Shown: piece after piece, positions 14,702-57,845 of the stretch | Layout of the letters: each line of letters starts with the position of its first letter | How positions within the stretch are numbered: position 1 is the first letter of the stretch | Virus record (IMG/VR): IMGVR_UViG_2925908680_000001 | Reading direction: 5' to 3' (one strand) | DNA: 64,000 nt | DNA from: a virus | Lineage: Duplodnaviria; Heunggongvirae; Uroviricota; Caudoviricetes | The notes under the pieces: generated by a model | Told to the model about the DNA's origin: nothing | The model's database searches: none | The model's input: only the letters and a program-made list of their open reading frames with translations | Made by a program: the position numbers and the translations under genes

Positions 14702-14724
14702 TGAAATCACATACTGATTATGCT
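14702..14724 (+). promoter_or_regulatory. late-promoter-like element TGAAATCACATACTG + -10-like GATTAT
   Basis: Same family; 33 bp upstream of 14757 ORF. Confidence 0.5.
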
Positions 14725-14756
14725 GCCGCAAAACTGGAAACAATTTGCGGTGATTC

Positions 14757-16439: not shown

Positions 16440-16452
16440 CCGGAGGGAAATA

Positions 16453-17463: not shown

Positions 17464-17469
17464 GTTAAA

Positions 17470-17478
17470 TTTCTAACA
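17470..17478 (-). promoter_or_regulatory. operator-like 9-mer TGTTAGAAA (minus orientation)
   Basis: Member of dispersed motif family (12 sites). Confidence 0.5.
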
Positions 17479-17565
17479 TAGTGTATTTATATACACTGTT
17501 GATCCTGGTGGATGGGATCGAGTAGGATCGCGGTCACTGCTTCGGTAGCGACTGCCAAAAAAAGC

Positions 17566-17590
17566 AAAAGCCGCTGAGAAGCGGCTTTTT
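17566..17590 (+). terminator. rho-independent terminator aaaagccgc-tgagaa-gcggctttt + T-run
   Basis: Classic stem-loop plus U-tract. Confidence 0.85.
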
Positions 17591-17651
17591 GGTGTATAAA
17601 TCCACTGGCATAGATTTATACGGTAGATAGATTTTTTCACGGAGCTATCTG

Positions 17652-18614
17652 GTGAGTATTTTAAATTCAGTTTCAGTAACTTTCAACACTTCTGAGTATA
17701 AAAACAACACTGAATACCACAAAAAAATCAAAGGTCATCAGTTGAGTTTTTTTGCTCGTCATAGCGGTCTTATTTCCCCTTCACATAGCGCCATTATTGC
17801 CGAGTTCGCCAACCTGGCAGGGGCTACCGATGAATACATGATCCGTCGCTCATATGCTGATATGTCCGAGATTACAGGACGCAGTATTTCTACTGTGCGC
17901 CGGGCATTTGCTGAAGCGACGAAGTGCGGAATGCTTGTTAAGCAACATCAGGTAGCGAATAACAATGCCCAGGTGTGTAACGTATATCGGTTTACGACAC
18001 AATTTCTCCACTTCATTCATGTAGCAATGGAGATAGGGGGTAAGCAGGGCATCAAATTTGCCAACGCCACAAAACTGGTTAAGCAGTTGATTTCAAAGGT
18101 TCGTTATTTTTTTGAAACTGGGAACCCCCTGTTCAAATTGAACAAGTCCCCCCATGTTCAAAATGAACAGCCAATAGAAAATAAGAGTCACTCTATAGCC
18201 AAAAGAAGAGAAAGATCATGCGCGGTTCAGCCAAAGGCTTCACCAGCAGATAGTTCTCAAACGGATAACGTGGTACTGGATAAAAAACCAGTAATCAGGG
18301 AAGAACATACCAACCACTGCCTGGCGGCGGCAAAAGCGAGAGCTGCAAAGCGTCGTTCAGACGAGGGGCACGCAAAACGGCAGGCTCTGTATCGTACCGC
18401 TGAAAAGCTGGCAAAAAAATTTGCATGGATACGTAGTGCCGCTACCGCAGTGAATAAGCCTAAACAATCCAATGCCCTGGATTTCTCAATGGATTATTCT
18501 GGCTCCCAGGGGTGTGCAACCATTGGTGAAGCCTTTGACCTGATGAAACAGCGTGGCTATCGGTCTGAATTTGACCGGGAGGATTGGTCAATCCCTGCGG
18601 GATTTAGGGGATGA
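17652..18614 (+). CDS. HTH DNA-binding protein, possible replication initiator (RepL-like?)
   Basis: 320 aa; HTH-like ITGRSISTVRRAFAEATKCGMLV; internal palindromic iteron pair; basic C-terminal half. Confidence 0.3.
   Translation: MSILNSVSVTFNTSEYKNNTEYHKKIKGHQLSFFARHSGLISPSHSAIIAEFANLAGATDEYMIRRSYADMSEITGRSISTVRRAFAEATKCGMLVKQHQVANNNAQVCNVYRFTTQFLHFIHVAMEIGGKQGIKFANATKLVKQLISKVRYFFETGNPLFKLNKSPHVQNEQPIENKSHSIAKRRERSCAVQPKASPADSSQTDNVVLDKKPVIREEHTNHCLAAAKARAAKRRSDEGHAKRQALYRTAEKLAKKFAWIRSAATAVNKPKQSNALDFSMDYSGSQGCATIGEAFDLMKQRGYRSEFDREDWSIPAGFRG
18125..18169. repeat. two tandem palindromes CCCCC-TGTTCAAATTGAACA / CCCCCC-ATGTTCAAAATGAACA inside coding sequence
   Basis: Read directly; 15-bp palindromes 22 bp apart. 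Confidence 0.8.
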
Positions 18615-18668
18615 CCTGTGTGTCTACAAAGCATCCCAATGATCGGAAAATGCCCGCTCGATGATTTA

Positions 18669-18677
18669 TGTTAGAAA
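18669..18677 (+). promoter_or_regulatory. operator-like TGTTAGAAA with inverted partner TTTCTAA at 18690-18696
   Basis: Dispersed motif family; upstream of icd/ant module 1. Confidence 0.55.
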
Positions 18678-18879
18678 ATTAATTTGCTGTTTCTAAATCG
18701 GAATGTATGATCTGCATCATCGACAGAAGTCATCCATTGCTGAAATTTTTAGTTGATCTTCCATGTTTTCAGGCTTATATTCATGCCGTCGTAGCAAATT
18801 CTGCGACCAGGTTTGACAGCCTGAATGTTAGTGCGGACAACCGCAGATTTCCGATATTGCGGTATTTTTGTGTCCGTAA

Positions 18880-19020
18880 ACCGCGTTACGCCCGAATTAT
18901 GGTGGGGCGTGATGGGGAGGCTTCGGCCTGCTGGTTTCACTAACGCCAGTCTGTCAACCCTGTCACGTCCTGCCACCTGTTTGACAGCGGGTAGCAGGTT
19001 GTTAAACCTGTTAGTGAGGC
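18880..19020 (+). ncRNA. candidate C4-type antisense RNA / structured leader upstream of icd-like gene
   Basis: GC-rich hairpins in leader, position equivalent to P1 c4; not verified by covariance model. Confidence 0.3.
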
Positions 19021-19027
19021 CGTAACT

Positions 19028-19252
19028 ATGGTTAATGCCAATCCTTGCTCACGTCCAGAATTCATCTGGCGTTTCCACTCCCTGCAAAAACACTGCGATC
19101 ACTTCGCAATTGCCGCAACCGAAAAAGAAGCCCGTTCTCTGATCCCTGATCAGCATGGTGTTCTTACTGGTCGTTTCTCTACTTCCCCACAACCAAACAC
19201 TAATCCCTGGTATCGCAATATTACCAATCCCGGCATTGCGGAGGCACACTGA
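19028..19252 (+). CDS. Icd-like small protein (cell-division-inhibitor family candidate)
   Basis: 74 aa with EFIWRF motif; paralog at 58655..58870; directly upstream of antirepressor. Confidence 0.45.
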   Translation: MVNANPCSRPEFIWRFHSLQKHCDHFAIAATEKEARSLIPDQHGVLTGRFSTSPQPNTNPWYRNITNPGIAEAH

Positions 19253-19959
19253 TGGATATCTGCATTCTTGAAAAGCCATCAATGACCAGCATTGAGATCG
19301 CGGAGCTGGTGGGAAAACGTCATGACAATGTGAAGCGTACCATTGAAACATTAGCCGAATCCGGCGTTATTGTTCGTCCTCAAATTGAGGATGAACCAAA
19401 AATAGATGTAATGGGGCGTTCTCGATTAATTCAGGTGTTCCGATTTAGCGACGAGCAAGGCAAACGAGACAGCATCATTGTAGTCGCACAGCTTTGTCCT
19501 GAGTTTACTGCCCGGCTGGTGGACCGCTGGCGCGAACTGGAAGAACAAGTACGCCAGCCGTTGACCGAAATAGAGATGATCGCCGCAATGGCTGCAAATG
19601 CAGTTCAGCAGCAAAAGCGGCTTCATGCTGTTGAGTCAAAGGTTAGCCAGGTCGCTGAAACCGTCGAGCAAATCAAGAAGGGCAATATGCCAGATGGCTA
19701 CATTGGCTACCGCCAGCTGGCGGCGAAATGTGGCCTGACTGAAGCCAAATGTCGCAACCTGGTTAACGCTTACCGGATTCCCACCGATACACATGAGTTT
19801 TTAACTCCAGAGGGGGTATTGTCGCGTCGTTCCATCGTGGCCTTATCTCCCTTCATGAATGCTTTTAACCGGATGATGTCGGAGGCTGAACACCGAGGAA
19901 AACGCTGGTATCACCCCAAAATGGGGCAATTCCAGGTGATCGGTTGGGGAGGTGAGTGA
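19252..19959 (+). CDS. antirepressor (Ant/Rha-type N-terminal domain)
   Basis: 235 aa; MTSIEIAELVGKRHDNVKRTIE motif; ATGA coupling to icd-like gene. Confidence 0.6.
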   Translation: MDICILEKPSMTSIEIAELVGKRHDNVKRTIETLAESGVIVRPQIEDEPKIDVMGRSRLIQVFRFSDEQGKRDSIIVVAQLCPEFTARLVDRWRELEEQVRQPLTEIEMIAAMAANAVQQQKRLHAVESKVSQVAETVEQIKKGNMPDGYIGYRQLAAKCGLTEAKCRNLVNAYRIPTDTHEFLTPEGVLSRRSIVALSPFMNAFNRMMSEAEHRGKRWYHPKMGQFQVIGWGGE

Positions 19960-20156
19960 TGGACATCATGCAGGCGGTAAAAAAAATCAGGGAAGGACAG
20001 GCTGAAGTGTGCCGCCGTAAAGCATGGAGTGTTGGTGTATGGGCCTGGCCTGATAATTACTCTACTACCGGATGGTTTTGTATTAATGGACTCCAGATCC
20101 GGGAAGTTGATTTATCGACGGCTGATATAGTCGGTAATGATTGGATCGTGACTTGA
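19959..20156 (+). CDS. DUF2829 (Tad2-like) small protein
   Basis: 65 aa; W...W....DWIV pattern; homologous to C-terminus of second Ant (58870..59811); TGATG coupling. Confidence 0.5.
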   Translation: MDIMQAVKKIREGQAEVCRRKAWSVGVWAWPDNYSTTGWFCINGLQIREVDLSTADIVGNDWIVT

Positions 20157-20164
20157 AGCGTGAT

Positions 20165-20189
20165 GCCCCGGCCTGGCCGGGGCTTTTTT
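20165..20189 (+). terminator. rho-independent terminator gccccggc-ctg-gccggggc + TTTTTT
   Basis: 8-bp GC stem plus U-tract. Confidence 0.85.
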
Positions 20190-20674
20190 CATGCCTCATT
20201 AGTTGAGGTTGCTGCGTCTCCGACTGGTAACAGAGCGGTATTGCGTGGTTCGCCAGCAGGCCAGCGATAGCCAGACACTCTTGATGTTGGGAATGCGCGA
20301 ATATTAACCGCATCCCCCTGGTTCCCACCCAGGACAAGCAGATCGCCATTGGCGCGGCGTCCGACAACGAAGCCTACGTGCCCACCGCCTACACGGGTAA
20401 ATACAACGATACATCCGTATGCCGGTGTATCTAATTTCTCGCCCCAATCCAGATAGGATTTTGCCGACTCAAATCTTGTTGAGCGGATGCCTACACGTTC
20501 CAGCATTGCACCGACAAATGCTGCGCACCACGGCGTTTCATCGTCTTTAATTCCGCCGCGCTTGATGTCGCGCCAGAACTGAACGATTTCAGGGTTGTGT
20601 TTAGCGCCTTTTATTTCAGTCAGGCCAATGTGCTTACGGGCTTCAATTAGCCAGCGAGGTTCAATGTTTGCCAT
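20189..20674 (-). CDS. Cys/His peptidase-like protein (NlpC/P60-CHAP/TIGR02594-like)
   Basis: 161 aa; conserved WCAAFV ... GGHVGFVVG pattern. Confidence 0.5.
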   Translation of the reverse strand: MANIEPRWLIEARKHIGLTEIKGAKHNPEIVQFWRDIKRGGIKDDETPWCAAFVGAMLERVGIRSTRFESAKSYLDWGEKLDTPAYGCIVVFTRVGGGHVGFVVGRRANGDLLVLGGNQGDAVNIRAFPTSRVSGYRWPAGEPRNTALLPVGDAATSTNEA

Positions 20675-20825
20675 ATTTTTCTCCCGGTCATGGGTTAATA
20701 AGTAGGCAAACTATGGGGAGTATGTGATTTTGACGGTAGTATCGCCCCCCTGAAAATAACATTCTCCATACCCTCTCAACCGTACCGCATAGCGGAATTT
20801 TTTACGGTTTAGAGGGGGAAATCCT

Positions 20826-23800
20826 TTGGACAAACTACTTCATTCAATCAGTGAAGCCTCCAGCTTAGGCGAACTGATTGAAATTGTTAGTCGGTTGCAT
20901 AAATTACGTGCTGTTGCGACCTTTGGCGTCAGGAAAGCCGATGGCGTCAGTATTCAGAAAACACGCCGGGCAGCAAACAATGCCGCAGTAAATCTTCTTA
21001 ATTCCCTTCCGCCCGGCTTCGATGGGGCGAAATTAACTGACGAACAACGTCAGATTCTTGCTGGGTATACCGGTGAAGGCGGCCTGACAGATGGTGAGGG
21101 CAGCCAATACGAATACTACACGCCACAGTTTATGGCTGAAGGTATATGGGAGCTGTTTGCTGACTACGGTATTGATGGCGGTCACGTACTGGAACCATCA
21201 GCTGGCACGGGTATTTTCCAGGAGACAAAACGGCAGGGAATGATAATGACCAGCGCCGAGCTGTCTCCGATCTCCGGTCGAATCAACCAGCTGTTGCACC
21301 CGGAAGACGATGTGAACATTGGGGCGTTTGAGGCTCTGGCGGCGAAAGACGCAATGTATGACCACGCTGTTGGTAACGTACCGTTTGGCGAAGGCCGTTC
21401 CGGCGTTGCAGGGCTTGATCCGGCATATGCAAACGAGAAGAACGTTGGCAATTACTTTGTGCTGCGCACGATCGACAAGGTTAAACCTGGTGGGCTTATC
21501 GTATTGGTGGTGCCGAATGGCATGACTGATGGTACGAAATACAAAAAATTGCGCGATAAAGTTAGCCGTAAAGCGGAATTTTTGGGCGCGCATCGTATGC
21601 CTTCCGGTACGTTCAGTGAATCAGGTACAGATACCGTGGTGGACGTATGGGTATTGCGTAAACACCCGGAAGCCTTCCTGGAGATGATCCCCGATACGGA
21701 TGATTCGACGCTCAAATCGGCAAACGTCCTTTGGGATACCTTCCTCAAAGGGAAATGGTTTACAACCGAAGGGAAGCGATTTGTTTACGGCGACATGGAA
21801 CGTACCAGCTTCCGCAATACCCTGGTGGTGAAAAAAGACGGTCGTGTATCCAATGAGTCGATGAAAACCGCGCTATCTCGTCGCTTTGATAGTCGCATCA
21901 ATTGGGATTTGCTCGGCGTAACTACTCAGGCATGGCAGGGCGCGAAAGTGGGCGATAAACGCCTTGTAGGCGGTATCTGGCATGAGTTTGATGGTCTGAA
22001 ATGGGTTAAGGACACGACAACCAAATCCTCCGCGCTTGATGTAAGTCGATATGGTGTTTCGACGTTTGGCGATCTGCAGATCGCGTTCCAGTCAACAAAC
22101 GGGATTCTGGCTTTGTCATGGGACCAGATATCGGCGATCGCGTCCGACTATCCATCGGTTGTCAGTGATGAAGTGGCAGCAATGATTCGCTTTGCTGGCA
22201 AGCAGCGAGAAAAAGACAGGGAGCGCGTTATGCGCGGTGCACTGATAGGTCAGTTGATCAACAAGGCACTTGATTTGCGTAACCTGGGGGTGAACGTTGA
22301 TGACAAACTGGCAGATGCATCCCGCTTGGCGGCAGCAGAAGTTGCGAAGTATGGACCACCGCACGCGATTAAGCTGAATGGGCTTGCTGAAGCTGGCGCT
22401 AAAAACTGGATGACGTTCACTGGCAATGTGAAACAGGATGGTTCCACTTCTGACCTTCTGGCAGGGCGACTTGATGTAACGGATGGTGCTGCCGGTATTG
22501 ACTTTACGCGTCCTGAACAAGTGATAGCACATCTTTTTAGTGATGTAGCCCTTAATCCTATAACGCTGGGCGACTTTCGTGAGGCGTTTGCTGGTGAACT
22601 GCCAGAGGACGACGACGCGGTCCTTGAATACCTGGCGAAATTTGATGATATCGCTATTGATGGGTATGGCTGTCTGCTGCCGATGGACCGCGCCACCAGC
22701 GGCGATGTTGCAACCAAAACAGCACTGCTGGTGGGCTGGCGTGATGCGTCAACAGGTGAGCAGAAAGCGAACTTTGAGCGTCAGTTGGCGAAAATCGAAG
22801 AGAAACGCATTTTCACGCCACTAAATAAAGTCACCGTTAATCTGAATGCCCGCTGGCTGGATCGCCGCTTGATAAAAGAGTTCCTGGCAGAGCAGGGCTA
22901 TGACGAGTTTAAGTACACTGAACCTGATCTGAAGGTCGTCGATGGCATTCTGGTATCTCCGGACGATTACGAAGGTAAGGACGGGGTATTTACCGGCTAT
23001 CAGCTACGAACCGTAAACGGCAAAAACGGGAATGAGTTCAAGAAGGCCAACAATAAAGACGGCTTCCTGAACCAGTTAGAAAACTACCTGAACGGTGTTA
23101 AACCGCGTGGGCAGAACGCTAACGAGTACCTGGATAAAATTGCTCAACTGGAAGTTAGCTTTAACGACTGGTTACGCACCCACCCGCAGGCGGATCAGAT
23201 AGCCCGTGACTATAACGACGCATTCAATGGTTTCATTCCGTTCACACATTCTGACGCACCGCTTGGCCTGGAAGGGATTAGTGGAAAGCGCATTCCTCTG
23301 ACTTATCAGAATGAAGAAGTTCGGCGCTTGTCAGAAGATGGGCGTGGCATCATGGGATTTGGTACCGGGCTGGGTAAAACCACGACCGCGCTTGCGCTTG
23401 AGGCGTATAACTTCGAAACAGGTCGCACTAAACGCACGTGTATTGTTGTTCCGAAGGCGGTTTATCAGAACTGGTATCACGAGGCACAGAGTTTCTACAG
23501 TGCTGATGCCTTCGCCAATATGATGTTTATCGGTTTGGATGAAGTTCGTGATGACAGCGGAAATATTCTGACCGCGCCGGTGCTTGATGAAAATGGCGAA
23601 CCACGCCTCGACAGTAACGGGCAGCCTCTTACCAGAAATGTTGTGAAAGAGTCCTCCAGCGCCGTTATCGTTCAGCGTATGAACATGATCCCGTCGTCAA
23701 ATTGGCGAACGGTCATCATGACAAAAGAACAATTCGCGTCTATCCCGCTACGAGAAAAAACCATCGAGGAGAACTCACAGCAAGCTGTCTTTAATGCTGT

Positions 23801-26800
23801 GGAAATGGGGCGTCTTGACCTGGCGTCCGGTAAACACCGTGATGCGCAGAAGAAGAACAAGATTAAGGATCAGGCCGCGAATACCGGTACAACGAAGAAG
23901 CAGAATATCCCGTACTTTGAGGATATGAACTTCGATAGCGTGATTGCCGACGAGGGGCATAACTACCGCAACTCCTTTAATGCCGGGCGTGAAGCGGGAC
24001 AACTGGCATATTTGCCTAACCCGGCAGTATCCAAGATGGCCCGCGACATGGCTGTAAAAGCTGCGTACATGATGAAACGCAACAACGGGCGTGGTGTAGT
24101 CATGCTGACGGCAACTCCGCTGGTGAACAGTCCGATTGATGCCTTCAACATGCTGTCTACTGTCATTCCGCAGGAAGAGTGGATGCGCATGGGCATCATT
24201 ACGCCTGATGATTTCGTTCGTGTGTTTGGCAAAACAGCCACAGTTCAGGTCCAGAAAATTTCCGGGGAAGTGGAAGAGAAGCAGGGGCTGGTGGGCTTCC
24301 AGAACCTTGACGGCCTGCGTGGTATTTTCCATCGTTGGACCACTCTGAAGACTGCTGCAGATGTCGGAGCGACGGTTAAAATTCCCGACATCATCGAGAA
24401 CACCTTGCAGATCCCGATGACAGGGGAGCAGGAGACTGCTTATGAAGAGCTTCGTAAGCGTGCTCAGGAGTTAAGTCGCAATGATGAGCTGACAGTCGAT
24501 GAAAACGGGCATATCACTAACGACAAACCGGATGATTTCATTTTCTCCATCATCCGTGACATGGACAAGGTTGCTATAGACCCGGATCTGTATGCCAGTG
24601 CGATTACATTCCAGTTCCCCGTTGAGCTTGCAGACCAGGTAAAAGCTATTGCTGATGCCTTGCCAAAAGTAGCTGGCGGTAAAGTGGCAGATGATGTTGA
24701 TGAGGCCGAGGAAGACGGCGCTGGCGGGCTGGTCAGTACGCGTACCAGCAAGGTAGTGAAGACCGCTTTTAGTGAACATCCGACGCATGTTGAAATACGT
24801 GCCAGCATTGAACTGGAAGCTGAAATACTGAAGGCCATTGCGGCTGCCGGCATTGATATGCAGCAGGTATCGCACCCCATCCCGCCGAAGTATGCCGCGC
24901 TGATCGAAAATCTTCGTGAAGGTCTGAAGAACGGTAAGCAGATCGTCTTTATTGATGAAAAAGCCCAGCACCAGAAGCTGCGCCGTATTATCGCCAGTGC
25001 ACTGCAAATGCCGGAGCAGGAGATTGGCATTATCAATGCGACGACAGTTAGCCAGGCTGGTGGCATCAAGCTGAAGAAGGTGAATAAGCCGACCGAACCT
25101 ACTCCAAACAAAAACGGTGAATACAAAGAAGGGGCATGGGAAACCTACTACAGCAAACTTGCCCAATATGAGGATTATCTCTCCGCTAAAAATGATGCTG
25201 GCCTTGAGGGCATGGAAGGTATTGCCGCCGACTATAACGAAGGTCGCACGCGCATCATAATCTGTAACAAGAAGGCTGAAGTAGGTATTAACCTGCACAT
25301 CGGGACAACCGATATCCACCACCTGACACTACCCTGGACACCAGCCAGTATCGACCAACGAAATGGGCGCGGTGCGCGCGTAGGTTCACCGCAAGAAAAG
25401 GTCAATGTTCACTACTATTGTGGCAAAGGCACATTCGACGACTTCCGTCTGGATACGCTGAAACGTAAGAAAGACTGGATCAAGATGGTGATGACCTCCG
25501 ACATGTCAGAGATCGCCAATGGTGATGCGGATGATGCTGATGAACGCGCCATTATGCTGGCGGCAAACCCGGAAGAACGCCGCGCAATCATGGCTCGCCA
25601 GGCGCAAGAGCGTGAAGAACGTCTGAAACTGAAAGCACAGCGCGAGGCCAACAATGCTCTCGATATCTACCTGAAAGCGGCAAACGCCGCCGGAAAAGAT
25701 ATCGGCATGATGGAGACAGAACTGAAAAGCGCGATGGAACAGATAGAGTATTACCAGCGAAATCTTGACGACCTGATAAAAGCGGGTACGAACAGGAATG
25801 GGCAAAAATACGCACTTGAGCAGTTGAGTAGCTACAGAAAACGTGCGCGGGTGCTGCGGTTTGCGATCACCAGGGCAAAAGACGCGGATACCATAATGAA
25901 ACGCTCTCGTGGTGATGTGGAGCGCGCTATTAAGTCTGGTGTGCTGGATATCAGTATCGATGTTATTCAGAACCCACAGGAATATATGCGCACTGACAAG
26001 AATATCCTGTTGCATAAAGGTAGTTATTACCGTGCAGTCATTGATGATCGCGAAACAACAGCGATTGTCCGGGTGGAAAAAATTGACGGTGAAAAAGCAC
26101 AATACCTCTGCCGTATCGCCTGGTTGGATAGAGCAAGTCGTTACGCTCGAGCACCGGGGTCAATCGTTACATTGCCGTTTGACTCTGTGATTGAAGCGGT
26201 AACTTTTGAAGAGGGGGTAGCTGAATCGCGCGCAACGGCTGCGCGTGGTGTTCAGTGCCACCAGCTATCAACAATACTTACTCGCGATCAGTTCTATGAT
26301 GCTATTCGCAATGGGGTAATGAATGTTATTGCTGGTAAACCTGGTAATGCATGGGGCGGTGGGTCAGCGATTAAATACTGGGCATATCGCACAGATGATG
26401 GTCAGATCGCGCTGTCATCGGCCTATGATGGCGTGATAGGCCAAAAAATCGGGCGAGCATCGGATATAGCACCTGAGCGATGGATATATCCTGATGGCAA
26501 CGACGAGGCGCTGAAGCGTGAAGTGGCAAAAATACAAGCCAGTGATAACCCGCTGAATATCGTGGACGGCGAGGGATTCCTCCAGGCATTGTATGGGTAT
26601 GATTACATCCAGGGAATGCAGTCATGGGGCGCACAGGCAACGATGGATGATGTTGCCCAGGAGTTCGAAAACTGGATGGCTGGGCGTGGTCTGTCAGGTC
26701 GTTCGCTTAATAAAGTCACTTCTGAAGATATTCTTAGCTTGTTCCGCAAACCGTCCGGAGAAGGTCTGGAATCATTCTGGAGGACCGTGCTGGCATACCG

Positions 26801-27662
26801 TGTATTCCAGGGCAGGATGAAAGCCTTTAGCAATATCGATGATATTGAACGGATGTTTAATCAGGTCAAGATAGCGAAAATTAAGACGAAGATCGAAAAA
26901 ACACGTTCTGCGCTGGTGGCCTGGCGCGATGCATTGTTTGAGCAATATAAATCACTCAGTGATGCAGATGGATGGGCGGCATTGGAACAGCTGGCGAATA
27001 ATGGGGTAGATGGAGCGAAACTAGCCATTGTTCAGGCTGATAACCCCCTGGAATCACCGGCAGCACAGTGGATTAAGGTGGGGGCTGTCATCAATGCATT
27101 TGATGAAAAATACATTAGTAAGGACGATTTTGCTGATGCTGTTTCTGTTAATCGCCTGGTAGAAATGGCTACCCGTCGCGCCCGTGAGTTGAAAGACGGC
27201 GACTATGTGAATGAGTTGCCGGATGCGCTCAAATCGGCAACGTGGCAGGACTATGTATCGCTGAAAAACGGCGGGGCCACTGAATCAGAGATCGCGGAAA
27301 GGCTTGAGCAGGCTGAAAGCAAAAGAGAAGAGCAGGCGGCAGTGGCTGAAGCCAGAGCTGATGAAGCGGCGAATGATGACTATATCATTGTGGTTAATGA
27401 TAAGCCGATTCGCGCTAAGGCGCGTGTTCGCGGGCGCTGGTGGAGCGTCAGCGAGGACGTTGGCGCGGTTTATCTCATTGCCGACCAACCAGGTTCCTCG
27501 ACAATACGGAACGCCAAAGACGCGATTAAGAAGATTGGCGGGCGTTTCTGGAATTTTGAAGCAAACCCGGTTGCTGATGTGAACTTTGACCGTCCTGCAT
27601 GGATGGTATCTACGCGTTACTCGGTAGATGAACTGCGTAAAATAATCGCCGATGCGGCCTAA
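20826..27662 (+). CDS. darB: DarB-like antirestriction protein: N6-adenine methyltransferase + SF2 helicase fusion
   Basis: 2278 aa; SAM motif EPSAGTGIF, catalytic NVPFG, Walker A GFGTGLGKTT, DEGH box, helicase motif VI QRNGRGARVG; strong SD before TTG start. Confidence 0.75.
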   Translation: MDKLLHSISEASSLGELIEIVSRLHKLRAVATFGVRKADGVSIQKTRRAANNAAVNLLNSLPPGFDGAKLTDEQRQILAGYTGEGGLTDGEGSQYEYYTPQFMAEGIWELFADYGIDGGHVLEPSAGTGIFQETKRQGMIMTSAELSPISGRINQLLHPEDDVNIGAFEALAAKDAMYDHAVGNVPFGEGRSGVAGLDPAYANEKNVGNYFVLRTIDKVKPGGLIVLVVPNGMTDGTKYKKLRDKVSRKAEFLGAHRMPSGTFSESGTDTVVDVWVLRKHPEAFLEMIPDTDDSTLKSANVLWDTFLKGKWFTTEGKRFVYGDMERTSFRNTLVVKKDGRVSNESMKTALSRRFDSRINWDLLGVTTQAWQGAKVGDKRLVGGIWHEFDGLKWVKDTTTKSSALDVSRYGVSTFGDLQIAFQSTNGILALSWDQISAIASDYPSVVSDEVAAMIRFAGKQREKDRERVMRGALIGQLINKALDLRNLGVNVDDKLADASRLAAAEVAKYGPPHAIKLNGLAEAGAKNWMTFTGNVKQDGSTSDLLAGRLDVTDGAAGIDFTRPEQVIAHLFSDVALNPITLGDFREAFAGELPEDDDAVLEYLAKFDDIAIDGYGCLLPMDRATSGDVATKTALLVGWRDASTGEQKANFERQLAKIEEKRIFTPLNKVTVNLNARWLDRRLIKEFLAEQGYDEFKYTEPDLKVVDGILVSPDDYEGKDGVFTGYQLRTVNGKNGNEFKKANNKDGFLNQLENYLNGVKPRGQNANEYLDKIAQLEVSFNDWLRTHPQADQIARDYNDAFNGFIPFTHSDAPLGLEGISGKRIPLTYQNEEVRRLSEDGRGIMGFGTGLGKTTTALALEAYNFETGRTKRTCIVVPKAVYQNWYHEAQSFYSADAFANMMFIGLDEVRDDSGNILTAPVLDENGEPRLDSNGQPLTRNVVKESSSAVIVQRMNMIPSSNWRTVIMTKEQFASIPLREKTIEENSQQAVFNAVEMGRLDLASGKHRDAQKKNKIKDQAANTGTTKKQNIPYFEDMNFDSVIADEGHNYRNSFNAGREAGQLAYLPNPAVSKMARDMAVKAAYMMKRNNGRGVVMLTATPLVNSPIDAFNMLSTVIPQEEWMRMGIITPDDFVRVFGKTATVQVQKISGEVEEKQGLVGFQNLDGLRGIFHRWTTLKTAADVGATVKIPDIIENTLQIPMTGEQETAYEELRKRAQELSRNDELTVDENGHITNDKPDDFIFSIIRDMDKVAIDPDLYASAITFQFPVELADQVKAIADALPKVAGGKVADDVDEAEEDGAGGLVSTRTSKVVKTAFSEHPTHVEIRASIELEAEILKAIAAAGIDMQQVSHPIPPKYAALIENLREGLKNGKQIVFIDEKAQHQKLRRIIASALQMPEQEIGIINATTVSQAGGIKLKKVNKPTEPTPNKNGEYKEGAWETYYSKLAQYEDYLSAKNDAGLEGMEGIAADYNEGRTRIIICNKKAEVGINLHIGTTDIHHLTLPWTPASIDQRNGRGARVGSPQEKVNVHYYCGKGTFDDFRLDTLKRKKDWIKMVMTSDMSEIANGDADDADERAIMLAANPEERRAIMARQAQEREERLKLKAQREANNALDIYLKAANAAGKDIGMMETELKSAMEQIEYYQRNLDDLIKAGTNRNGQKYALEQLSSYRKRARVLRFAITRAKDADTIMKRSRGDVERAIKSGVLDISIDVIQNPQEYMRTDKNILLHKGSYYRAVIDDRETTAIVRVEKIDGEKAQYLCRIAWLDRASRYARAPGSIVTLPFDSVIEAVTFEEGVAESRATAARGVQCHQLSTILTRDQFYDAIRNGVMNVIAGKPGNAWGGGSAIKYWAYRTDDGQIALSSAYDGVIGQKIGRASDIAPERWIYPDGNDEALKREVAKIQASDNPLNIVDGEGFLQALYGYDYIQGMQSWGAQATMDDVAQEFENWMAGRGLSGRSLNKVTSEDILSLFRKPSGEGLESFWRTVLAYRVFQGRMKAFSNIDDIERMFNQVKIAKIKTKIEKTRSALVAWRDALFEQYKSLSDADGWAALEQLANNGVDGAKLAIVQADNPLESPAAQWIKVGAVINAFDEKYISKDDFADAVSVNRLVEMATRRARELKDGDYVNELPDALKSATWQDYVSLKNGGATESEIAERLEQAESKREEQAAVAEARADEAANDDYIIVVNDKPIRAKARVRGRWWSVSEDVGAVYLIADQPGSSTIRNAKDAIKKIGGRFWNFEANPVADVNFDRPAWMVSTRYSVDELRKIIADAA

Positions 27663-27673
27663 CAGATAAGGAG

Positions 27674-27690
27674 CGGCCCCAACCGGGGCC
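27674..27690 (+). other. hairpin cggcccc-aa-ccggggccg after darB
   Basis: 7-bp stem, weak U-tract. Confidence 0.35.
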
Positions 27691-27698
27691 GAATTTGA

Positions 27699-28133
27699 AT
27701 GACGACATTAATTGACACTGTAAAACCGACGGAATCCTACCTTGAGGACATTTTGCCGCAGGCGCTCAATGGCAGGAGTGAAGAGGCGTTTCTGGATGCA
27801 TATCTGAATGGCATGGTGGAAAGGCTGAAACGAGATCCACAGCTTTATCACCTTTATGGGCCGTGGTGGCCTGCGCTTAAAACGTTATTGCTGGAGCGCG
27901 GCGACATATCATTTGGACAAGTTGTAGATAGTGATGTGGCAGAGATCTACAAAATGAGTCGCCCGGCGCTTACGGTTTTGGCTGGGCATCTGTATTCGAG
28001 CGATCGCCTGGGAAATGACGCGGTATACAATCCCGTTCATGCTCTGGAAGTCGCACCTTATGCTGATGATACAGAGCCATACGTGTACATAAGTTACGAC
28101 GAGTCTATAGAGAAATATCGAATCATGGGGTAG
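27699..28133 (+). CDS. hypothetical protein
   Basis: 144 aa ORF immediately after darB. Confidence 0.4.
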   Translation: MTTLIDTVKPTESYLEDILPQALNGRSEEAFLDAYLNGMVERLKRDPQLYHLYGPWWPALKTLLLERGDISFGQVVDSDVAEIYKMSRPALTVLAGHLYSSDRLGNDAVYNPVHALEVAPYADDTEPYVYISYDESIEKYRIMG

Positions 28134-28135
28134 CC

Positions 28136-28396
28136 ATGCGAAAGAATCGTAGGTTTACGGTCGAAGACCTAAAGGAATATTCCATATCGAAGGGGTATAT
28201 CCTTGAGTTCCACCGATACAAGAAGGTTTTTACGCTGCGAAAAGCAGAAAACCCTGCGAACTGGAGCTGGATATACTTTCCTCACACCGATGATAAGTTG
28301 GTAGAACTTGTTGATGATTTAACCTATGAAGGTTGGTTGATCGCAATCGACAAGACAATCAAAGAATTATCCGAACAGGATAAAATAACCCTTTAA
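28136..28396 (+). CDS. hypothetical protein
   Basis: 86 aa ORF, 3-nt spacing from previous. Confidence 0.4.
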   Translation: MRKNRRFTVEDLKEYSISKGYILEFHRYKKVFTLRKAENPANWSWIYFPHTDDKLVELVDDLTYEGWLIAIDKTIKELSEQDKITL

Positions 28397-28408
28397 AAAT
28401 AACAGGTT

Positions 28409-28432
28409 GGGTAAATGCCATGCGATTTACCC
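28409..28432 (+). terminator. hairpin gggtaaat-gccatgcg-atttaccc
   Basis: 8-bp stem after stop. Confidence 0.45.
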
Positions 28433-28532
28433 TCCTTGTTGATTAAGGTCACTCTTTACTCTAAAAGCAAATCCGACCTGTTGCATATAGACCATCCTTG
28501 AGTAGTATCTCTCTTGTTTTACAAATCTAACG

Positions 28533-29027
28533 TTGTTGTTATTATTTCGCATATTTACTATCAATGGGTGTGTTAGAAAAATAGCGCGAAAGAGAAGGCG
28601 TCGCAGTGAATATTCTGAAACATCCCCACATGCCGCAGCTCTTAGAGAACTGGAGAAAAACCCAGATCTAATCAAAAGGAACCATGAGCATTACGAGCAG
28701 GTTCGCGTCCTGGACTGGTTGTATCGCAATATGCGTTATGTGTATGAGCATACTCACGCCACTCCAAACGGTGGCCTGCGAGGCATAAGGACGGCAATAA
28801 AAATGGTGGCAGAGGGCCAAAAGAAGGGATATCCCGATCTTTCTATAGACCTTGCTTGTGGGGGATACCACGGAATGCGCATTGAGATGAAACATGGGAG
28901 AAATCGCCTGACTCCCGAACAACTCGTCTGGATGACCCGCCTCACTGAAGCCGGTTACTACTGCTTTGAGGCGCGCAGTGCCGCTGAAGCCATAAAAGCT
29001 ATCACGGAGTATGTTTGTCTTGATTAA
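28533..29027 (+). CDS. VRR-NUC domain nuclease (start uncertain)
   Basis: C-terminal GYPDLSIDLACGGYHGMRIEMK pattern typical of VRR-NUC; operator-like 9-mer lies inside the annotated 5' end, so true start is probably downstream. Confidence 0.55.
   Translation: MLLLFRIFTINGCVRKIARKRRRRSEYSETSPHAAALRELEKNPDLIKRNHEHYEQVRVLDWLYRNMRYVYEHTHATPNGGLRGIRTAIKMVAEGQKKGYPDLSIDLACGGYHGMRIEMKHGRNRLTPEQLVWMTRLTEAGYYCFEARSAAEAIKAITEYVCLD
28571..28579 (+). promoter_or_regulatory. operator-like TGTTAGAAA
   Basis: Dispersed motif family. Confidence 0.45.
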
Positions 29028-29041
29028 ACGGAGAAATCGTT

Positions 29042-29242
29042 TTGCGTTTACTTAACGTGGCAGAACTTATCCCTGCAGGAACTAATGCTATCGCTCGTCG
29101 TCGCTCATGGCAGCAGGCTCTATGTATTGAGATCTCGAAACGTATCAATGGAAGTTTTGAAGCTCGCAATATTGTTACTGGCGATAAGGTTCACATAACC
29201 CCGGAAAGTGCAAGCGCTGATGATTGGGAGTTTGTACATTGA
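29042..29242 (+). CDS. hypothetical protein
   Basis: 66 aa ORF. Confidence 0.3.
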   Translation: MRLLNVAELIPAGTNAIARRRSWQQALCIEISKRINGSFEARNIVTGDKVHITPESASADDWEFVH

Positions 29243-29538
29243 GCAAAAAATATTATGTGAGTCTGGCGTTCGCTGACGATGCGGGGAGGACGCGGAGTAT
29301 CACGTTGAGCACGCCGGTTAAGGCTGTGACAGCGCCGTTAATCCGTGAAGCTCTCAGAGAGCTGGAATTGGGGGAAAACTCGGCACTGTTGTCGGTTAGT
29401 TGGTTAGGGAAAATGTCAGAGAAGCAATACGTGAATGGAGTTACCCCAATAACAGTAATGAGGCTACTTTCATTGCTGCAATGGGCCATCGTACCTGTAT
29501 TTATCGCGTATCTTATTTATCAGGCTGCAACACAGTAA
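29224..29538 (+). CDS. hypothetical protein with C-terminal TM helix
   Basis: 104 aa ORF followed by strong terminator. Confidence 0.35.
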   Translation: MGVCTLSKKYYVSLAFADDAGRTRSITLSTPVKAVTAPLIREALRELELGENSALLSVSWLGKMSEKQYVNGVTPITVMRLLSLLQWAIVPVFIAYLIYQAATQ

Positions 29539-29545
29539 TTGCATA

Positions 29546-29575
29546 AAAACCCGCCAATTAGCGGGTTTTTTGTTT
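29546..29575 (+). terminator. rho-independent terminator aaaacccgc-caatta-gcgggtttt + T-run
   Basis: Classic. Confidence 0.9.
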
Positions 29576-29613
29576 ATTGCATCTTCCGATACCGCCATCA
29601 AACTAATAAAATA

Positions 29614-29622
29614 TGTTAGAAA
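29614..29622 (+). promoter_or_regulatory. operator-like TGTTAGAAA
   Basis: Dispersed motif family; 30 bp upstream of 29652 ORF. Confidence 0.55.
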
Positions 29623-29651
29623 ACTAATTTAACAAGGTGACGGGAACAGCA

Positions 29652-30860
29652 ATGAGTCAACACACTGATACTTCTAATCTGGAAATTATCTCGACAGCAA
29701 TTGAAACGCTGCGCACACAAATCGCTCTTATACAGAAACGGAATCCGGGTGATGACCTGTCAAAGCGACTGCACGAGAGTGTCATTGCCACTACAGATAA
29801 CCTGGTGGCGGAAATCAACAAGCTGCTTGATGATGGGGCAGTTGATTACAATAAGCTGGTGGATCAGTTTGAGGAATACCAACAAGCCGTTAATGATGGC
29901 TTGATCCGTTTTTCACAAGTCACAGGCGTATCAGCGACAGTTGAAAGCCTGGGTGATGCAGTTAATCAATTTGCCGCGAATATGCGTAATGAGATCGGCA
30001 ATCTGGAAGCGCGTCTTGAACAGGCAAATACACTGCGTAAATCTGCCGAAGCCGATTTGAACCGTTACAAAAAAGACTATCCGCCCAGCCTGACAAAGCG
30101 GCTGGATGTTGCGGAGAAGGATAACCGCACGCTGAAAAGAGAGCGCCGGGAACTAAAAGAGCGTTTAACCAAGCTCAATCAGCAATGCATTGATTATCAA
30201 GGCGAAGGCGTCACACTGCGTAAAAAGTTGGCTACAGCGCAGAGCATTATCGAAACATTAAAGCGAGAGTGCTCACAGCTTGGTCACGATCTGAACCGTG
30301 CTTGTGGCATGGGACAAAGACCAGAGACATTTCCACTTATGTATGATGGAAGGGATGCCATTGCCTACATCCATGAGTATCCGCACGGCCTGGTTGCGGA
30401 AACTGGGCAGCGTGGCGAAGCACTGCTGACGGCTAATTACCATCAACAAATCAGAACCAATCGCCTGTTAACGATGGATGTGATCCCATCGGTATGGGGA
30501 ACGCCGCTTTACTATCGCCTGCCGGGCTTCGAAAAGGACTGGAATACCGACATAGACGAATGTCTCGCAGATAAAATTATGGCGTACCTGGAGACGGATT
30601 TTCCGCGCTTATATCGCCGGATTATGGACTCTAAGGATGCGCCAATCGATGAATTAAAAATGCGTCCGGAGACGCTGGAGGCAATCAAGCAGACGGAGTT
30701 TGATACTGTATTCAGTGTGGCCTGCATTCCAAGCTGTTTCCATGAAAGCATCCCGTTCATGCAAGGAGATCGTCGTCAGGAAATCCTTGACGCTTGCCGG
30801 GTATGGGCGAACGAATGGGATAAGAAGAATGGGGGTGTAGAAGATCTTTATGGGAAATAA
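29652..30860 (+). CDS. coiled-coil protein of unknown function, operator-bracketed
   Basis: ATG at 29652 (ORF track GTG at 29637); N-terminal coiled coil, C-terminal globular domain. Confidence 0.5.
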   Translation: MSQHTDTSNLEIISTAIETLRTQIALIQKRNPGDDLSKRLHESVIATTDNLVAEINKLLDDGAVDYNKLVDQFEEYQQAVNDGLIRFSQVTGVSATVESLGDAVNQFAANMRNEIGNLEARLEQANTLRKSAEADLNRYKKDYPPSLTKRLDVAEKDNRTLKRERRELKERLTKLNQQCIDYQGEGVTLRKKLATAQSIIETLKRECSQLGHDLNRACGMGQRPETFPLMYDGRDAIAYIHEYPHGLVAETGQRGEALLTANYHQQIRTNRLLTMDVIPSVWGTPLYYRLPGFEKDWNTDIDECLADKIMAYLETDFPRLYRRIMDSKDAPIDELKMRPETLEAIKQTEFDTVFSVACIPSCFHESIPFMQGDRRQEILDACRVWANEWDKKNGGVEDLYGK

Positions 30861-30862
30861 TG

Positions 30863-30871
30863 TGTTAGAAA
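30863..30871 (+). promoter_or_regulatory. operator-like TGTTAGAAA
   Basis: Dispersed motif family. Confidence 0.5.
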
Positions 30872-31018
30872 TCTAAAATCACAATCCGAATGTATTGATT
30901 GTGAAGATAACTTAACATAGAATTTTCCTTGCTGGTGGGCGGTACCCACGTTTCGCTTGCTGGGCTTGATAGTCACTTATTGGTTATTGTTCTCCCACCA
31001 GCATTTAACAAATTAAAG

Positions 31019-31027
31019 TGTTAGAAA
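31019..31027 (+). promoter_or_regulatory. operator-like TGTTAGAAA
   Basis: Dispersed motif family. Confidence 0.5.
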
Positions 31028-57843: not shown

Positions 57844-57845
57844 TT

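What the first reader, a model, noticed from the sequence alone, without database searches (positions are those of the whole stretch)
29614..30871. Unknown coiled-coil gene bracketed by operator-like sites
Gene 29652..30860 has an operator-like 9-mer 30 bp before its start and another 3 bp after its stop, and a strong terminator just upstream isolates it as its own unit. Repressor-controlled single genes in P1-type phages are typically replication, anti-immunity or host-takeover functions, so this unannotatable 403-aa protein is a good functional target.
Basis: inference. Interest (0 to 1): 0.45.

Follow-up and report, generated by a model that had tools for sequence, protein, structure and literature searches.

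The report
Repressor-controlled pmgS gene of D6-like phage
The gene is the already annotated pmgS homologue of a D6-like (P1-family) plasmid prophage; the flagged 9-mers look like real binding sites for the phage's main repressor, but the site after the gene serves the next operon, so this is an ordinary, largely known arrangement.

Summary
TGTTAGAAA occurs 11 times in the window against 0.49 expected. One copy lies 29 nt before the ATG at 29652, another starts 2 nt after the stop, and a strong terminator (29545-29576) precedes the gene.

The window is a D6-like P1-family plasmid prophage, 98-99% identical to phage D6 here. The 9-mer is best read as the operator of the D6-type C1 repressor. 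Its copies sit where P1 has C1 operators: c1, lpa, repL, c4-icd-ant, ref, the tRNA unit and pmgS. In relatives it keeps its position but changes orientation. It is distinct from a separate late-promoter box, AATCACANNCT.

"Bracketed" is a misreading. The sites at 30863 and 31019 face the downstream tRNA unit, and ref has the same layout.

The protein is not unannotatable. It is D6 orf9, a PmgS homologue (PHROG 1660, E=1.6e-146). In P1, pmgR-pmgS is annotated as C1-controlled. A P1 pmgS deletion plates normally, and PmgS is absent from the virion proteome.

One modest new point: the family combines an N-terminal coiled coil with a C-terminal domain resembling the RNA polymerase alpha C-terminal domain. 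That argues against D6's "prohead scaffolding" label. Interest is low to moderate.

The parts
29545..29576 (+). Intrinsic terminator ending the upstream pmgM-orf11-pmgR unit. It isolates pmgS as its own unit.
   Evidence: Stem of 10 pairs, loop of 6, then a T-run. RNA fold dG -19.7 kcal/mol, z = -5.55. A terminator occupies the same position in relatives L008 and L009.
29607..29612 (+). Candidate -10 hexamer TAAAAT of the pmgS promoter, with a weak -35 TTCCGA at 29584-29589. Inferred, not shown.
   Evidence: Read from the sequence. Relatives have TATTTT and TATATT abutting their operators. The consensus scan found no sigma-70 site of 9/12 or better here.
29611..29634 (+). Operator of the D6-type C1 repressor in front of pmgS. 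The core TGTTAGAAA is at 29614-29622, and the extended element is TGTTA-N11-TAACA.
   Evidence: Motif statistics. It is positionally equivalent to P1 OpmgRa/b. It is conserved upstream of pmgS in L008 in the opposite orientation and in L009 as an inverted pair.
29634..29639 (+). Shine-Dalgarno-like AAGGTG, 12 nt before the ATG.
   Evidence: Read from the sequence. The same ACAAGGTG string precedes P1 pmgR.
29652..30860 (+). pmgS homologue (D6 orf9), 402 aa.
   Evidence: PHROG 1660 E=1.6e-146 over residues 1-401. 99.3% identical to D6 orf9. 21% identical to P1 PmgS over the full length, E=1e-13.
29670..30302 (+). N-terminal coiled-coil region, residues 7-217.
   Evidence: AlphaFold model with pLDDT 87; helices 7-30, 35-91, 100-142 and 145-217. 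Database hits here are only weak coiled-coil matches.
30327..30638 (+). Conserved middle beta/alpha domain, residues 226-329, with no recognisable relative.
30639..30830 (+). C-terminal domain resembling the RNA polymerase alpha C-terminal domain (double helix-hairpin-helix), residues 330-393.
30863..30871 (+). C1-type operator belonging to the next (tRNA) transcription unit, not to pmgS.
   Evidence: Conserved at or overlapping the pmgS stop in L008 and L009. A promoter-like site follows at 30895-30923.
30877..30897 (+). Tentative late-promoter-like box AATCACAATCC-N3-TGTATT. It has one mismatch to the late box.
   Evidence: It resembles the box upstream of D6 gene 7. One-mismatch matches to the box as a class are no more frequent than chance.
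31019..31027 (+). Second C1-type operator of the downstream unit, lying between the hexamers TTAACA and TATAGT.
   Evidence: Conserved in L008 (11371) and L009 (11386).
32097..33583 (+). tRNA cluster (Arg-tct, Tyr-gta, Thr-tgt, Ser-tga, Met-cat), co-oriented with pmgS. It is the likely target of the operators at 30863 and 31019.
   Evidence: ARAGORN and Rfam. P1 has the analogous Obanab-controlled tRNA/ban unit.
38403..39440 (-). c1-type repressor gene (345 aa), the presumed binder of the 9-mer.
   Evidence: 21% identical to P1 C1 over 240 aa, E=2e-8. D6 annotates it as 'prophage repressor'. The orthologues in L008 and L009 carry PF27008 Phage_P7_repressor_C1.
39460..39468 (-). Operator 20 nt upstream of the c1 start codon, at the expected autoregulatory position.
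   Evidence: Paired inverted sites lie upstream of c1 in L008 and L009.

Best explanation
The window is a D6-like, P1-family plasmid prophage. Positions 29545-30860 form a monocistronic unit: an intrinsic terminator, a short AT-rich promoter region, one operator of the phage's C1-type repressor, a ribosome-binding site, and the pmgS homologue.

In the lysogen, C1 bound at 29611-29634 would block RNA polymerase, because the operator abuts the only plausible -10 element and covers the likely start site. On induction or infection the gene would be switched on with the other C1-controlled early genes. It would not depend on Lpa-driven late transcription.

The 9-mer just after the stop, together with the one at 31019, is the operator pair of the next unit: a roughly 1.2-kb leader followed by the tRNA cluster. 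This is the counterpart of P1's Op72-controlled tRNA/ban unit.

The product is a dispensable, non-virion accessory protein. It has a long coiled coil (probably a dimerisation rod), a conserved middle domain of unknown fold, and a C-terminal domain resembling the RNA polymerase alpha C-terminal domain. The most likely activity is binding to DNA or to a partner in the transcription or replication machinery during early lytic growth, not capsid scaffolding.

Shown here: motif statistics, site positions, the terminator, homology and the predicted fold. Inferred: C1 binding, early timing, dimerisation and the molecular target.
For: Identity of the element: 98-99% identical to phage D6 across 14704-32173 and 33502-39666.

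Operator reading:
- 11 exact copies against 0.49 expected, and 11 of 12 D6 copies are intergenic (P = 1.4e-10).
- Copies lie 20 nt upstream of c1, 79 nt upstream of lpa (one mismatch, bivalent), 174 nt upstream of repL, about 100 nt upstream of the c4-a1b1/C4 RNA module, on both sides of ref, upstream of hrdC (inverted pair), in the ppp/pdcB spacer and upstream of pmgS.
- These positions mirror P1's annotated C1 operators Op99, Op94, Op53, Op51, Op2, Op72, Op83 and Op86. The last is annotated 'controls expression of pmgR and pmgS'.
- Orientation does not matter. Upstream of pmgS the site is forward in the window, reversed in L008, and an inverted pair in L009.
- A different motif, AATCACANNCT-N3-TAnnnT, marks the late operons. 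It has 5 exact copies against 0.66 expected, all facing R, ddrB, prt, the peptidoglycan hydrolase and mat. It is absent upstream of pmgS.

Terminator.

Protein:
- PHROG 1660 E=1.6e-146; similar to P1 PmgS over the full length.
- The P1 pmgS deletion yields infectious virions with normal plating, and CRISPRi gives an efficiency of plating of 1.2.
- PmgS is not among the 23 P1 virion proteins.
- In Vibrio phage douglas 12A4 the homologue sits among early and replication genes, next to a DNA methyltransferase.
Against: - No binding or transcript data exist for D6-type phages. The D6 genome paper (PMC5800970) was not readable here, so it may already define these sites, or define them differently.
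- No sigma-70 promoter of 9/12 or better was found upstream of pmgS.
- The 9-mer plus the conserved TAAnnT downstream of it also resembles a box-plus-(-10) promoter layout.
- The hairpins after the pmgS stop are weak terminators, so pmgS transcripts may read through into the tRNA unit.
- The window protein itself does not reach Pfam significance for RNA_pol_A_CTD.
- The alpha-subunit DNA-contact residues R265 and N268 align with E340 and E343. DNA binding in the manner of the alpha C-terminal domain is therefore doubtful.
- Dispensability was shown for the P1 orthologue, which is only 21% identical, and only under laboratory plating conditions.
- The CRISPRi screen also missed the essential neighbour pmgR, so the deletion carries the weight of that evidence.
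Confidence: 0.65

Rival explanations
1. The 9-mer is not an operator. It is the activator box of a promoter class: a TGTTAGAAA box at about -22 plus a TAAnnT -10 element, like P1's Lpa-dependent late promoters. On this reading pmgS would be a late gene.
For: A conserved TAAnnT lies 2-3 nt downstream of the box. The geometry resembles the P1 late promoters, which have a 9-bp -22 box, about 4 nt, then a -10 element. The box shares ATGTnA with P1 LPpac.
Against: The sites are not in front of the late operons (prt, ddrB, R, mat, sheath, tube and others). Several of those carry a different over-represented box, AATCACANNCT. The sites lie instead at c1, lpa, repL, c4 and ref, which are the C1 targets in P1. 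At pdcB (53613) and upstream of pmgS in L008, the site faces away from the gene it precedes. Many sites are inverted pairs.
Confidence: 0.05
2. PmgS is the prohead scaffolding protein, as the D6 GenBank record proposes. The coiled coil would fill the procapsid and be expelled or degraded on maturation.
For: D6 orf9 is annotated 'putative prohead scaffolding protein'. The protein has a long helical coiled coil of typical scaffold size. No scaffold has been identified in P1. A scaffold would be absent from mature virions, which fits. The neighbour pmgR acts in head completion in P1.
Against: The P1 pmgS deletion gives infectious virions with normal plating, and CRISPRi scores the gene non-essential. 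The gene lies far from the portal/protease genes (16453-17463 region) and from the capsid gene. It has an operator but no late-promoter box. It carries a conserved globular half ending in an alpha-CTD-like domain, which scaffolds are not known to have. The P1 authors suggest the capsid protein's N-terminal 120 residues act as the scaffold.
Confidence: 0.1
3. The two flanking operators act together on pmgS. C1 bound at 29614 and 30863 loops out the 1.25-kb gene and tightens repression, which is the 'bracketing' in the first reader's sense.
For: Both sites are conserved at the same positions in relatives whose PmgS is only 45-54% identical. From my own knowledge, not checked here: C1-mediated looping between distant operators has been described for P1 c1 autoregulation.
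Against: The downstream site has its own partner at 31019 and its own promoter-like elements, and it faces a co-oriented tRNA unit, as in P1's Obanab. The same layout at ref shows that it arises wherever C1-controlled units are adjacent.
Confidence: 0.1
4. PmgS is a DNA-organising or DNA-bridging protein: a coiled-coil rod carrying helix-hairpin-helix DNA-binding heads. It would act on replicating or partitioning phage-plasmid DNA, not on transcription.
For: The family has a helix-hairpin-helix or alpha-CTD-like domain. Some relatives keep the alpha-subunit R265/N268-type residues, for example P0018 with LSTRTANTL. The coiled coil gives weak SMC/Rad50/JetC-type matches. The family was seen only in P1-supercluster phage-plasmids and a few other phages.
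Against: The coiled-coil matches are compositional noise far below the family cut-offs, and there is no ATPase head. In the D6-type protein, acidic residues replace the DNA-contact positions. No plasmid-stability or plating phenotype has been reported for P1.
Confidence: 0.15

Closest known systems
Phage P1 pmgR-pmgS unit with C1 operators OpmgRa/OpmgRb (former Op86a/b)
   Same: Both have a homologous pmgS (full-length alignment, E=1e-13). In both, a hairpin/terminator, a C1 operator and the string ACAAGGTG lie just before the coding region. Both belong to the same genome arm leading to lpa-pacAB-c1.
   Different: In P1 the cassette precedes pmgR, and pmgS follows 1 nt after it. Here pmgR sits in the upstream unit and the cassette lies between pmgR and pmgS, which makes pmgS monocistronic. 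The operator sequences also differ: TGTTAGAAA-type here against ATTGCTCTAATAAATTT in P1. This matches a C1 that is only 21% identical.
Escherichia phage D6 orf9 (ASR76320 / YP_009914686)
   Same: 99.3% identical protein and 99% identical DNA, with the same neighbours.
   Different: The D6 record annotates no operators or promoters, starts the gene 5 codons earlier at a GTG, and calls it a putative prohead scaffolding protein. The evidence here does not favour that label.
P1 Obanab (Op72)-controlled tRNA/ban operon
   Same: Paired C1 operators at the head of a unit that carries phage tRNA genes and tciA/tciB.
   Different: Here the two operators are 156 bp apart instead of overlapping. A roughly 1.2-kb leader with no recognised RNA family precedes the tRNAs. 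No ban helicase follows in this arm.
Bacterial RNA polymerase alpha subunit C-terminal domain (Pfam PF03118)
   Different: Here the domain is attached to a coiled coil and an unknown middle domain, not to the alpha N-terminal domain. In the D6-type protein the R265/N268 DNA-contact positions are acidic. The window protein itself does not reach Pfam significance.
Tailed-phage prohead scaffolding proteins (P22 gp8, T4 gp22 type)
   Same: Elongated and largely helical, and absent from mature virions.
   Different: Scaffolds are essential, expressed late, and usually encoded next to the capsid or protease genes. None of this holds here or for P1 PmgS.

Membership tests
PmgS family (PHROG 1660) | Full-length match to the family profile | tested here: met
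   E=1.6e-146; residues 1-401 match profile positions 1-404 of 405.
PmgS family (PHROG 1660) | Detectable similarity to P1 PmgS over the whole length | tested here: met
   BLASTP gives 21% identity over 415 columns, E=1e-13. tblastn against the phage collection missed P1 at the 1e-5 limit.
PmgS family (PHROG 1660) | Conserved neighbourhood in P1-supercluster phage-plasmids (darB-ulx-...-pmgM-...-pmgR-pmgS ... lpa-pacA-pacB-c1) | tested here: met
   D6, L008 and L009, L011 and L015.
C1-repressor operator regulon of P1-type phages | Asymmetric motif of about 17 bp, strongly over-represented and confined to intergenic control regions | tested here: met
   11 copies against 0.49 expected. 11 of 12 D6 copies are intergenic, P = 1.4e-10. 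Extended consensus of 17-18 bp.
C1-repressor operator regulon of P1-type phages | Sites at c1 itself and at lpa, repL, c4-icd-ant, ref and the tRNA/ban unit, as in P1 | tested here: met
C1-repressor operator regulon of P1-type phages | Function independent of orientation, with bivalent (inverted) pairs | tested here: met
   Reversed in L008, an inverted pair in L009, and pairs at hrdC, lpa and pdcB.
C1-repressor operator regulon of P1-type phages | Physical binding by the C1 protein and repression of the adjacent promoter | not testable with these tools
   Needs gel-shift or footprinting and reporter assays. The D6 genome paper was not readable.
Lpa-dependent late promoter | The conserved box sits a fixed distance upstream of a -10 element, in front of late (structural, lysis, packaging) operons, always facing the genes | tested here: not met
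   The TGTTAGAAA sites avoid the late operons and occur in both orientations. A different box, AATCACANNCT, fills that role.
Prohead scaffolding protein | Required for procapsid assembly | tested here: not met
   From the literature on the P1 orthologue: the deletion plates normally and CRISPRi scores the gene non-essential. Not tested for D6 itself.
Prohead scaffolding protein | Late expression and linkage to the capsid, portal or protease genes | tested here: not met
   No late box upstream. The portal/protease genes lie about 12 kb away, and the capsid gene is outside the window.
RNA polymerase alpha C-terminal domain-like fold (PF03118 / helix-hairpin-helix) | Profile match above the Pfam gathering score | tested here: inconclusive
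   Met in relatives P0016 (29.7 bits), P0030 (25.6) and P0018 (24.0) against a cut-off of 23.8. Not met by the window protein itself. hhalign of the family against the E. coli alpha C-terminal domain gives E=3e-4 and probability 39%.
RNA polymerase alpha C-terminal domain-like fold (PF03118 / helix-hairpin-helix) | Structural superposition on solved alpha C-terminal domains | tested here: met
RNA polymerase alpha C-terminal domain-like fold (PF03118 / helix-hairpin-helix) | Conservation of the '265 determinant' DNA-contact residues (R265, N268) | tested here: not met
   These positions align with E340 and E343 in the window protein. Some distant relatives, such as P0018, keep R and N.

The most novel reading that the evidence does not exclude
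PmgS is an early, C1-repressed mimic of the RNA polymerase alpha C-terminal domain. A dimeric coiled-coil rod would present two alpha-CTD-like heads. These would compete with, or substitute for, the host alpha C-terminal domain at activators or UP elements, or cooperate with Lpa and SspA. The effect would be to redirect host transcription during the switch from early to late growth in P1-family phage-plasmids. It would be dispensable on laboratory lawns but advantageous in nature.
Probability: 0.12. Interest if true: 0.6.

Novelty: new member of a known kind. Interest (0 to 1): 0.25.

Why it matters
For the scan, this finding can be closed. It is the D6-type counterpart of a P1 unit already annotated as C1-controlled, and the gene is already in GenBank.

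Two by-products are useful to phage-plasmid annotators:
- A working definition of two D6-type control elements that the D6 record does not annotate: the C1 operator (TGTTAGAAA core) and the late-promoter box (AATCACANNCT).
- Evidence that the PmgS family ends in a domain resembling the RNA polymerase alpha C-terminal domain and is controlled by an early operator. This undercuts the 'prohead scaffolding' and 'head morphogenesis' labels now propagated by PHROGs and RefSeq.

The function of PmgS remains unknown. It is conserved across the P1 supercluster but dispensable in the laboratory, so it is a reasonable but not urgent experimental target.

Tried and rejected
- I first read TGTTAGAAAnnTAAnnT as a late (Lpa) promoter because of its box-plus-(-10) geometry. 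I rejected this after mapping all sites on D6, finding a separate late box, and seeing reversed orientation in relatives.
- Pfam, NCBIfam, PADLOC and PDB sequence searches with the protein gave only coiled-coil noise: ERM, DivIVA, SMC, Rad50, JetC and haemagglutinin HA2.
- The first structure prediction, from 9 sequences, was poor for residues 225-303. It was replaced by a model built from 60 sequences.
- The afdb50 structure library was unavailable.
- The search for related loci with the 60-sequence alignment failed because it has no conserved stretch.
- The D6 genome paper and the P1 genome paper are not held. One literature search was wasted on the ambiguous term 'pmgS'. No paper on PmgS function was found.
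- An Rfam search of the 1.2-kb leader (30861-32096) found nothing credible beyond the tRNAs.
- A consensus scan found no strong sigma-70 promoter directly upstream of pmgS.
Full report
**What the window is.** The region around the finding is 99% identical to Escherichia phage D6, a P1-related plasmid prophage, in reverse-complement orientation. A whole-window alignment shows a D6-like element, not D6 itself. Long blocks are 97-98% identical, and several segments are replaced or diverged. The target ORF is D6 orf9, annotated 'putative prohead scaffolding protein; similar to P1 gene pmgS' in GenBank and 'PmgS-like head morphogenesis' in RefSeq. The encoded protein is 99.3% identical to it.

**Check of the observation.**
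- The gene runs from ATG 29652 to the stop at 30858-30860 and encodes 402 aa. Close homologues align from this Met, and the 922-member cluster P0001 has the same length. The GTG at 29637 used by the D6 record is therefore probably not the start.
- The window has 11 exact copies against 0.49 expected, and the largest count in 100 shuffles was 3.
- Aligning the copies extends the motif to about 17-18 bp: T(a/g)TGTTAGAAA(a/t)nTAAnnT.
- The upstream terminator is strong: a 10-bp stem followed by a T-run, dG -19.7 kcal/mol, z = -5.55.

**What the 9-mer is.** Because a conserved TAAnnT follows the box, I first suspected a promoter of the P1 late type, which has a -22 box plus a -10 element. Four results argue against that reading and for a repressor operator.
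- Position. I rebuilt the D6 genome from four fetched stretches and mapped every copy.
  - Exact or one-mismatch copies lie 20 nt upstream of c1, 79 nt upstream of lpa (as an inverted pair), and 174 nt upstream of repL.
  - Further copies lie about 100 nt upstream of the c4-a1b1/C4 antisense RNA module that precedes icd-ant (Rfam), on both sides of ref, upstream of hrdC (inverted pair) and in the ppp/pdcB spacer.
  - The remaining copies lie next to cre, upstream of pmgS, and twice ahead of the tRNA cluster.
  - This is essentially the list of C1 operators annotated in the P1 record: Op99, Op94, Op53, Op51, Op2, Op83, Op86 and Op72. P1's OpmgRa is annotated 'controls expression of pmgR and pmgS'.
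- Intergenic bias. 11 of the 12 exact D6 copies are intergenic, although only 10% of the genome is (P = 1.4e-10). The twelfth lies in the annotated N-terminus of the pmgM-like ORF, 26 nt downstream of a 10/12 sigma-70 promoter. That start codon is probably mis-called.
- A separate late box.
  - The regions upstream of several late operons (R, ddrB, prt, pmgB and gene 7 in D6; also the peptidoglycan hydrolase and mat in the window) carry a different box, AATCACANNCT-N3-TAnnnT.
  - This box has 5 exact copies in the window against 0.66 expected, and each one faces a late operon.
  - Only the capsid gene 23 upstream region in D6 also has a TGTTAGAAA copy, and that copy lies 16 nt from the divergent orf52.
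- Orientation in relatives.
  - In two D6-like relatives whose PmgS is 54% and 45% identical (L008 and L009), a site is kept between the terminator and pmgS.
  - In L008 that site is reversed (TTTTCTAATA), and in L009 it is an inverted pair (TTTCTAATAtaattcGTTAGAAAA). A promoter element could not tolerate this, whereas an operator can.

The presumed binder is the 345-aa c1 product (38403-39440, minus strand). It is a distant homologue of P1 C1 (21% identity, E=2e-8), which fits an operator sequence different from P1's ATTGCTCTAATAAATTT. Binding itself is inferred, not shown.

**Why the gene looks 'bracketed'.** The sites at 30863 and 31019 both point rightwards.
- A promoter-like site follows the first (30895-30923).
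- A tentative late-type box also follows it (30877-30897). This box has one mismatch, and one-mismatch matches as a class are no more frequent than chance.
- Next comes a roughly 1.2-kb leader with no recognisable RNA family.
- The leader runs into a co-oriented cluster of five tRNA genes at 32097-33583.
- P1 has the equivalent arrangement: the bivalent operator Obanab heads a unit containing trnA, trnT, tciABC and ban.
- Both downstream sites are conserved in L008 and L009.
- The ref gene (57265-57843) has the same layout, with an operator 70 nt before its start and another 2 nt after its stop.

Bracketing is therefore a by-product of consecutive C1-controlled units. Cooperative looping between the sites cannot be excluded, and I keep it as a minor rival.

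**The pmgS control region.** Only about 75 nt separate the terminator's T-run from the start codon.
- In all three phages a -10-like hexamer abuts the operator core: TAAAAT, TATTTT or TATATT. The -35 elements are weak.
- The consensus scan found no strong sigma-70 site here.
- I infer a modest promoter whose start site lies inside the operator, so bound C1 would occlude it.
- No late box is present.
- Compared with P1, the same cassette (hairpin, operator, ACAAGGTG) sits before pmgR instead. In D6-type phages pmgR belongs to the upstream pmgM-orf11-pmgR unit, which has its own operator at 28571, and pmgS stands alone.

**The protein.**
- It matches PHROG 1660 over its full length (E=1.6e-146) and aligns end to end with P1 PmgS (21% identity, E=1e-13).
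- Pfam, NCBIfam, PADLOC and PDB sequence searches return only coiled-coil noise.
- An exhaustive profile search found 86 cluster representatives (at 50% identity) with E-values up to 1e-3, most of them 350-470 aa long.
- Using 60 of them as the alignment, AlphaFold gave a confident model (pLDDT 87). It has long helices over residues 7-217, a beta-rich region at 226-280 followed by helices at 299-329, and a compact helical domain at 339-393.
- Three relatives score above the Pfam gathering threshold for RNA_pol_A_CTD at the homologous position, and six hit HHH_5.
- hhalign places window residues 330-385 on alpha residues 255-310 (E=3e-4).
- In that alignment the DNA-contact residues R265 and N268 correspond to E340 and E343. 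Some distant relatives keep R and N.
- The fold assignment is therefore solid, but DNA binding by this subfamily is doubtful. A protein-protein role is at least as likely.
- The middle domain, the best-conserved part among close relatives, has no recognisable fold match.

**What is known of the P1 orthologue.**
- Gonzales et al. 2022 (PMC9024508) made an in-frame pmgS deletion. It produced infectious virions with a normal plating and restriction phenotype.
- PmgS is not among the 23 proteins detected in P1 virions.
- The same authors note that no scaffold has been identified in P1 and suggest the capsid protein's N-terminal region fills that role.
- A genome-wide CRISPRi screen scored pmgS non-essential, with an efficiency of plating of 1.2 (PMC10695390). 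That screen also missed the essential neighbour pmgR, so the deletion carries more weight.
- No paper on PmgS function was found.
- In Vibrio phage douglas 12A4 the homologue lies among early and replication genes, next to a DNA methyltransferase.
- In L015 it lies immediately upstream of an Lpa-like gene.

**Best explanation.** This is a monocistronic, C1-operator-controlled early unit encoding a dispensable, non-virion accessory protein. The protein is a coiled-coil rod, probably a dimer, carrying an unknown conserved domain and an alpha-CTD-like head. It most plausibly engages DNA or a component of the transcription or replication machinery.
- The regulatory half of this statement is well supported by comparative evidence.
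- The biochemical half is inference.
- The 'prohead scaffolding' label in D6 rests only on helical content and is disfavoured by dispensability in P1, the operator-only control region, the gene's location and the globular C-terminal half.

**Novelty and verdict.** The gene is already annotated, and its P1 counterpart is already annotated as C1-controlled. The D6 paper, which I could not read, may already describe the operators. The finding is a new member of a known kind.

The only new elements are working definitions of the D6-type operator and late box, and the alpha-CTD-like domain in the PmgS family. Interest is 0.25.

The most novel reading still open is an early alpha-CTD mimic that redirects host transcription. 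I give it about 0.12 probability and an interest of about 0.6 if true.

Noticed in passing
window 57187-57195 (+), 57265-57843 (+), 57845-57853 (-): The ref homologue is flanked by the same 9-mer in the same way as pmgS: one copy 70 nt before its start and one starting 2 nt after its stop. The upstream copy also sits in a divergent promoter region.
   Followed up: partly
window 32097-33583 (+); L001 11896-13662: The window has five tRNA genes (Arg-tct, Tyr-gta, Thr-tgt, Ser-tga, Met-cat) co-oriented with pmgS. D6 has Asn-gtt where this element has Arg plus Tyr. ARAGORN places the D6 tRNAs on the strand opposite to the one shown for the GenBank features. The D6 record also lacks the tRNA-Met.
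   Followed up: partly
window 30861-32096 (+): A roughly 1.2-kb stretch with no annotated gene lies between pmgS and the tRNAs. It is headed by two operators and contains a terminator-like hairpin at 31608-31636. No Rfam family matches credibly. Relatives L008 and L009 keep a similar gene-free stretch.
   Followed up: partly
window 18775-18980 (+) and 58390-58600 (+): There are two immunity-I-like RNA modules. The first has the c4-a1b1 targets plus C4 antisense RNA upstream of icd-ant. The second has a C4 copy preceded by an isrK-like sRNA match and lies next to a second icd/anti-repressor pair.
   Followed up: no
window 34038-34613 (+): This ORF (D6 orf6, annotated 'hypothetical') carries a Tad2-like Thoeris anti-defence domain (PF11195, 39 bits against a cut-off of 25). 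It lies two genes upstream of lpa and is conserved in L008, L009 and L010.
   Followed up: partly
window 1942, 13258, 14705, 20719(-), 61328: A candidate D6-type late-promoter box, AATCACANNCT-N3-TAnnnT, has 5 exact copies against 0.66 expected. Each copy faces a late operon: R, ddrB, prt, the peptidoglycan hydrolase or mat. The D6 record does not annotate it.
   Followed up: partly
window 28518-28579 (+): A 10/12 sigma-70 promoter (28518-28545) and an operator copy (28571-28579) lie inside the annotated N-terminus of the pmgM-like VRR-NUC ORF (TTG start at 28533). The true start is probably downstream, because relatives have shorter ORFs (149-156 aa against 164).
   Followed up: no
window 12525-12570 (+): A run of the repeat CCACAA (aaccacaaccacaacc...) lies inside the ddrB-like region. 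I saw it only while listing motif contexts.
   Followed up: no
L010 199-7392: One D6-like relative has a Tn3-family transposase, a resolvase, and a SIR2-like plus DUF87 gene pair inserted just upstream of pmgR-pmgS, in place of the darB arm. This may be a defence cargo.
   Followed up: no
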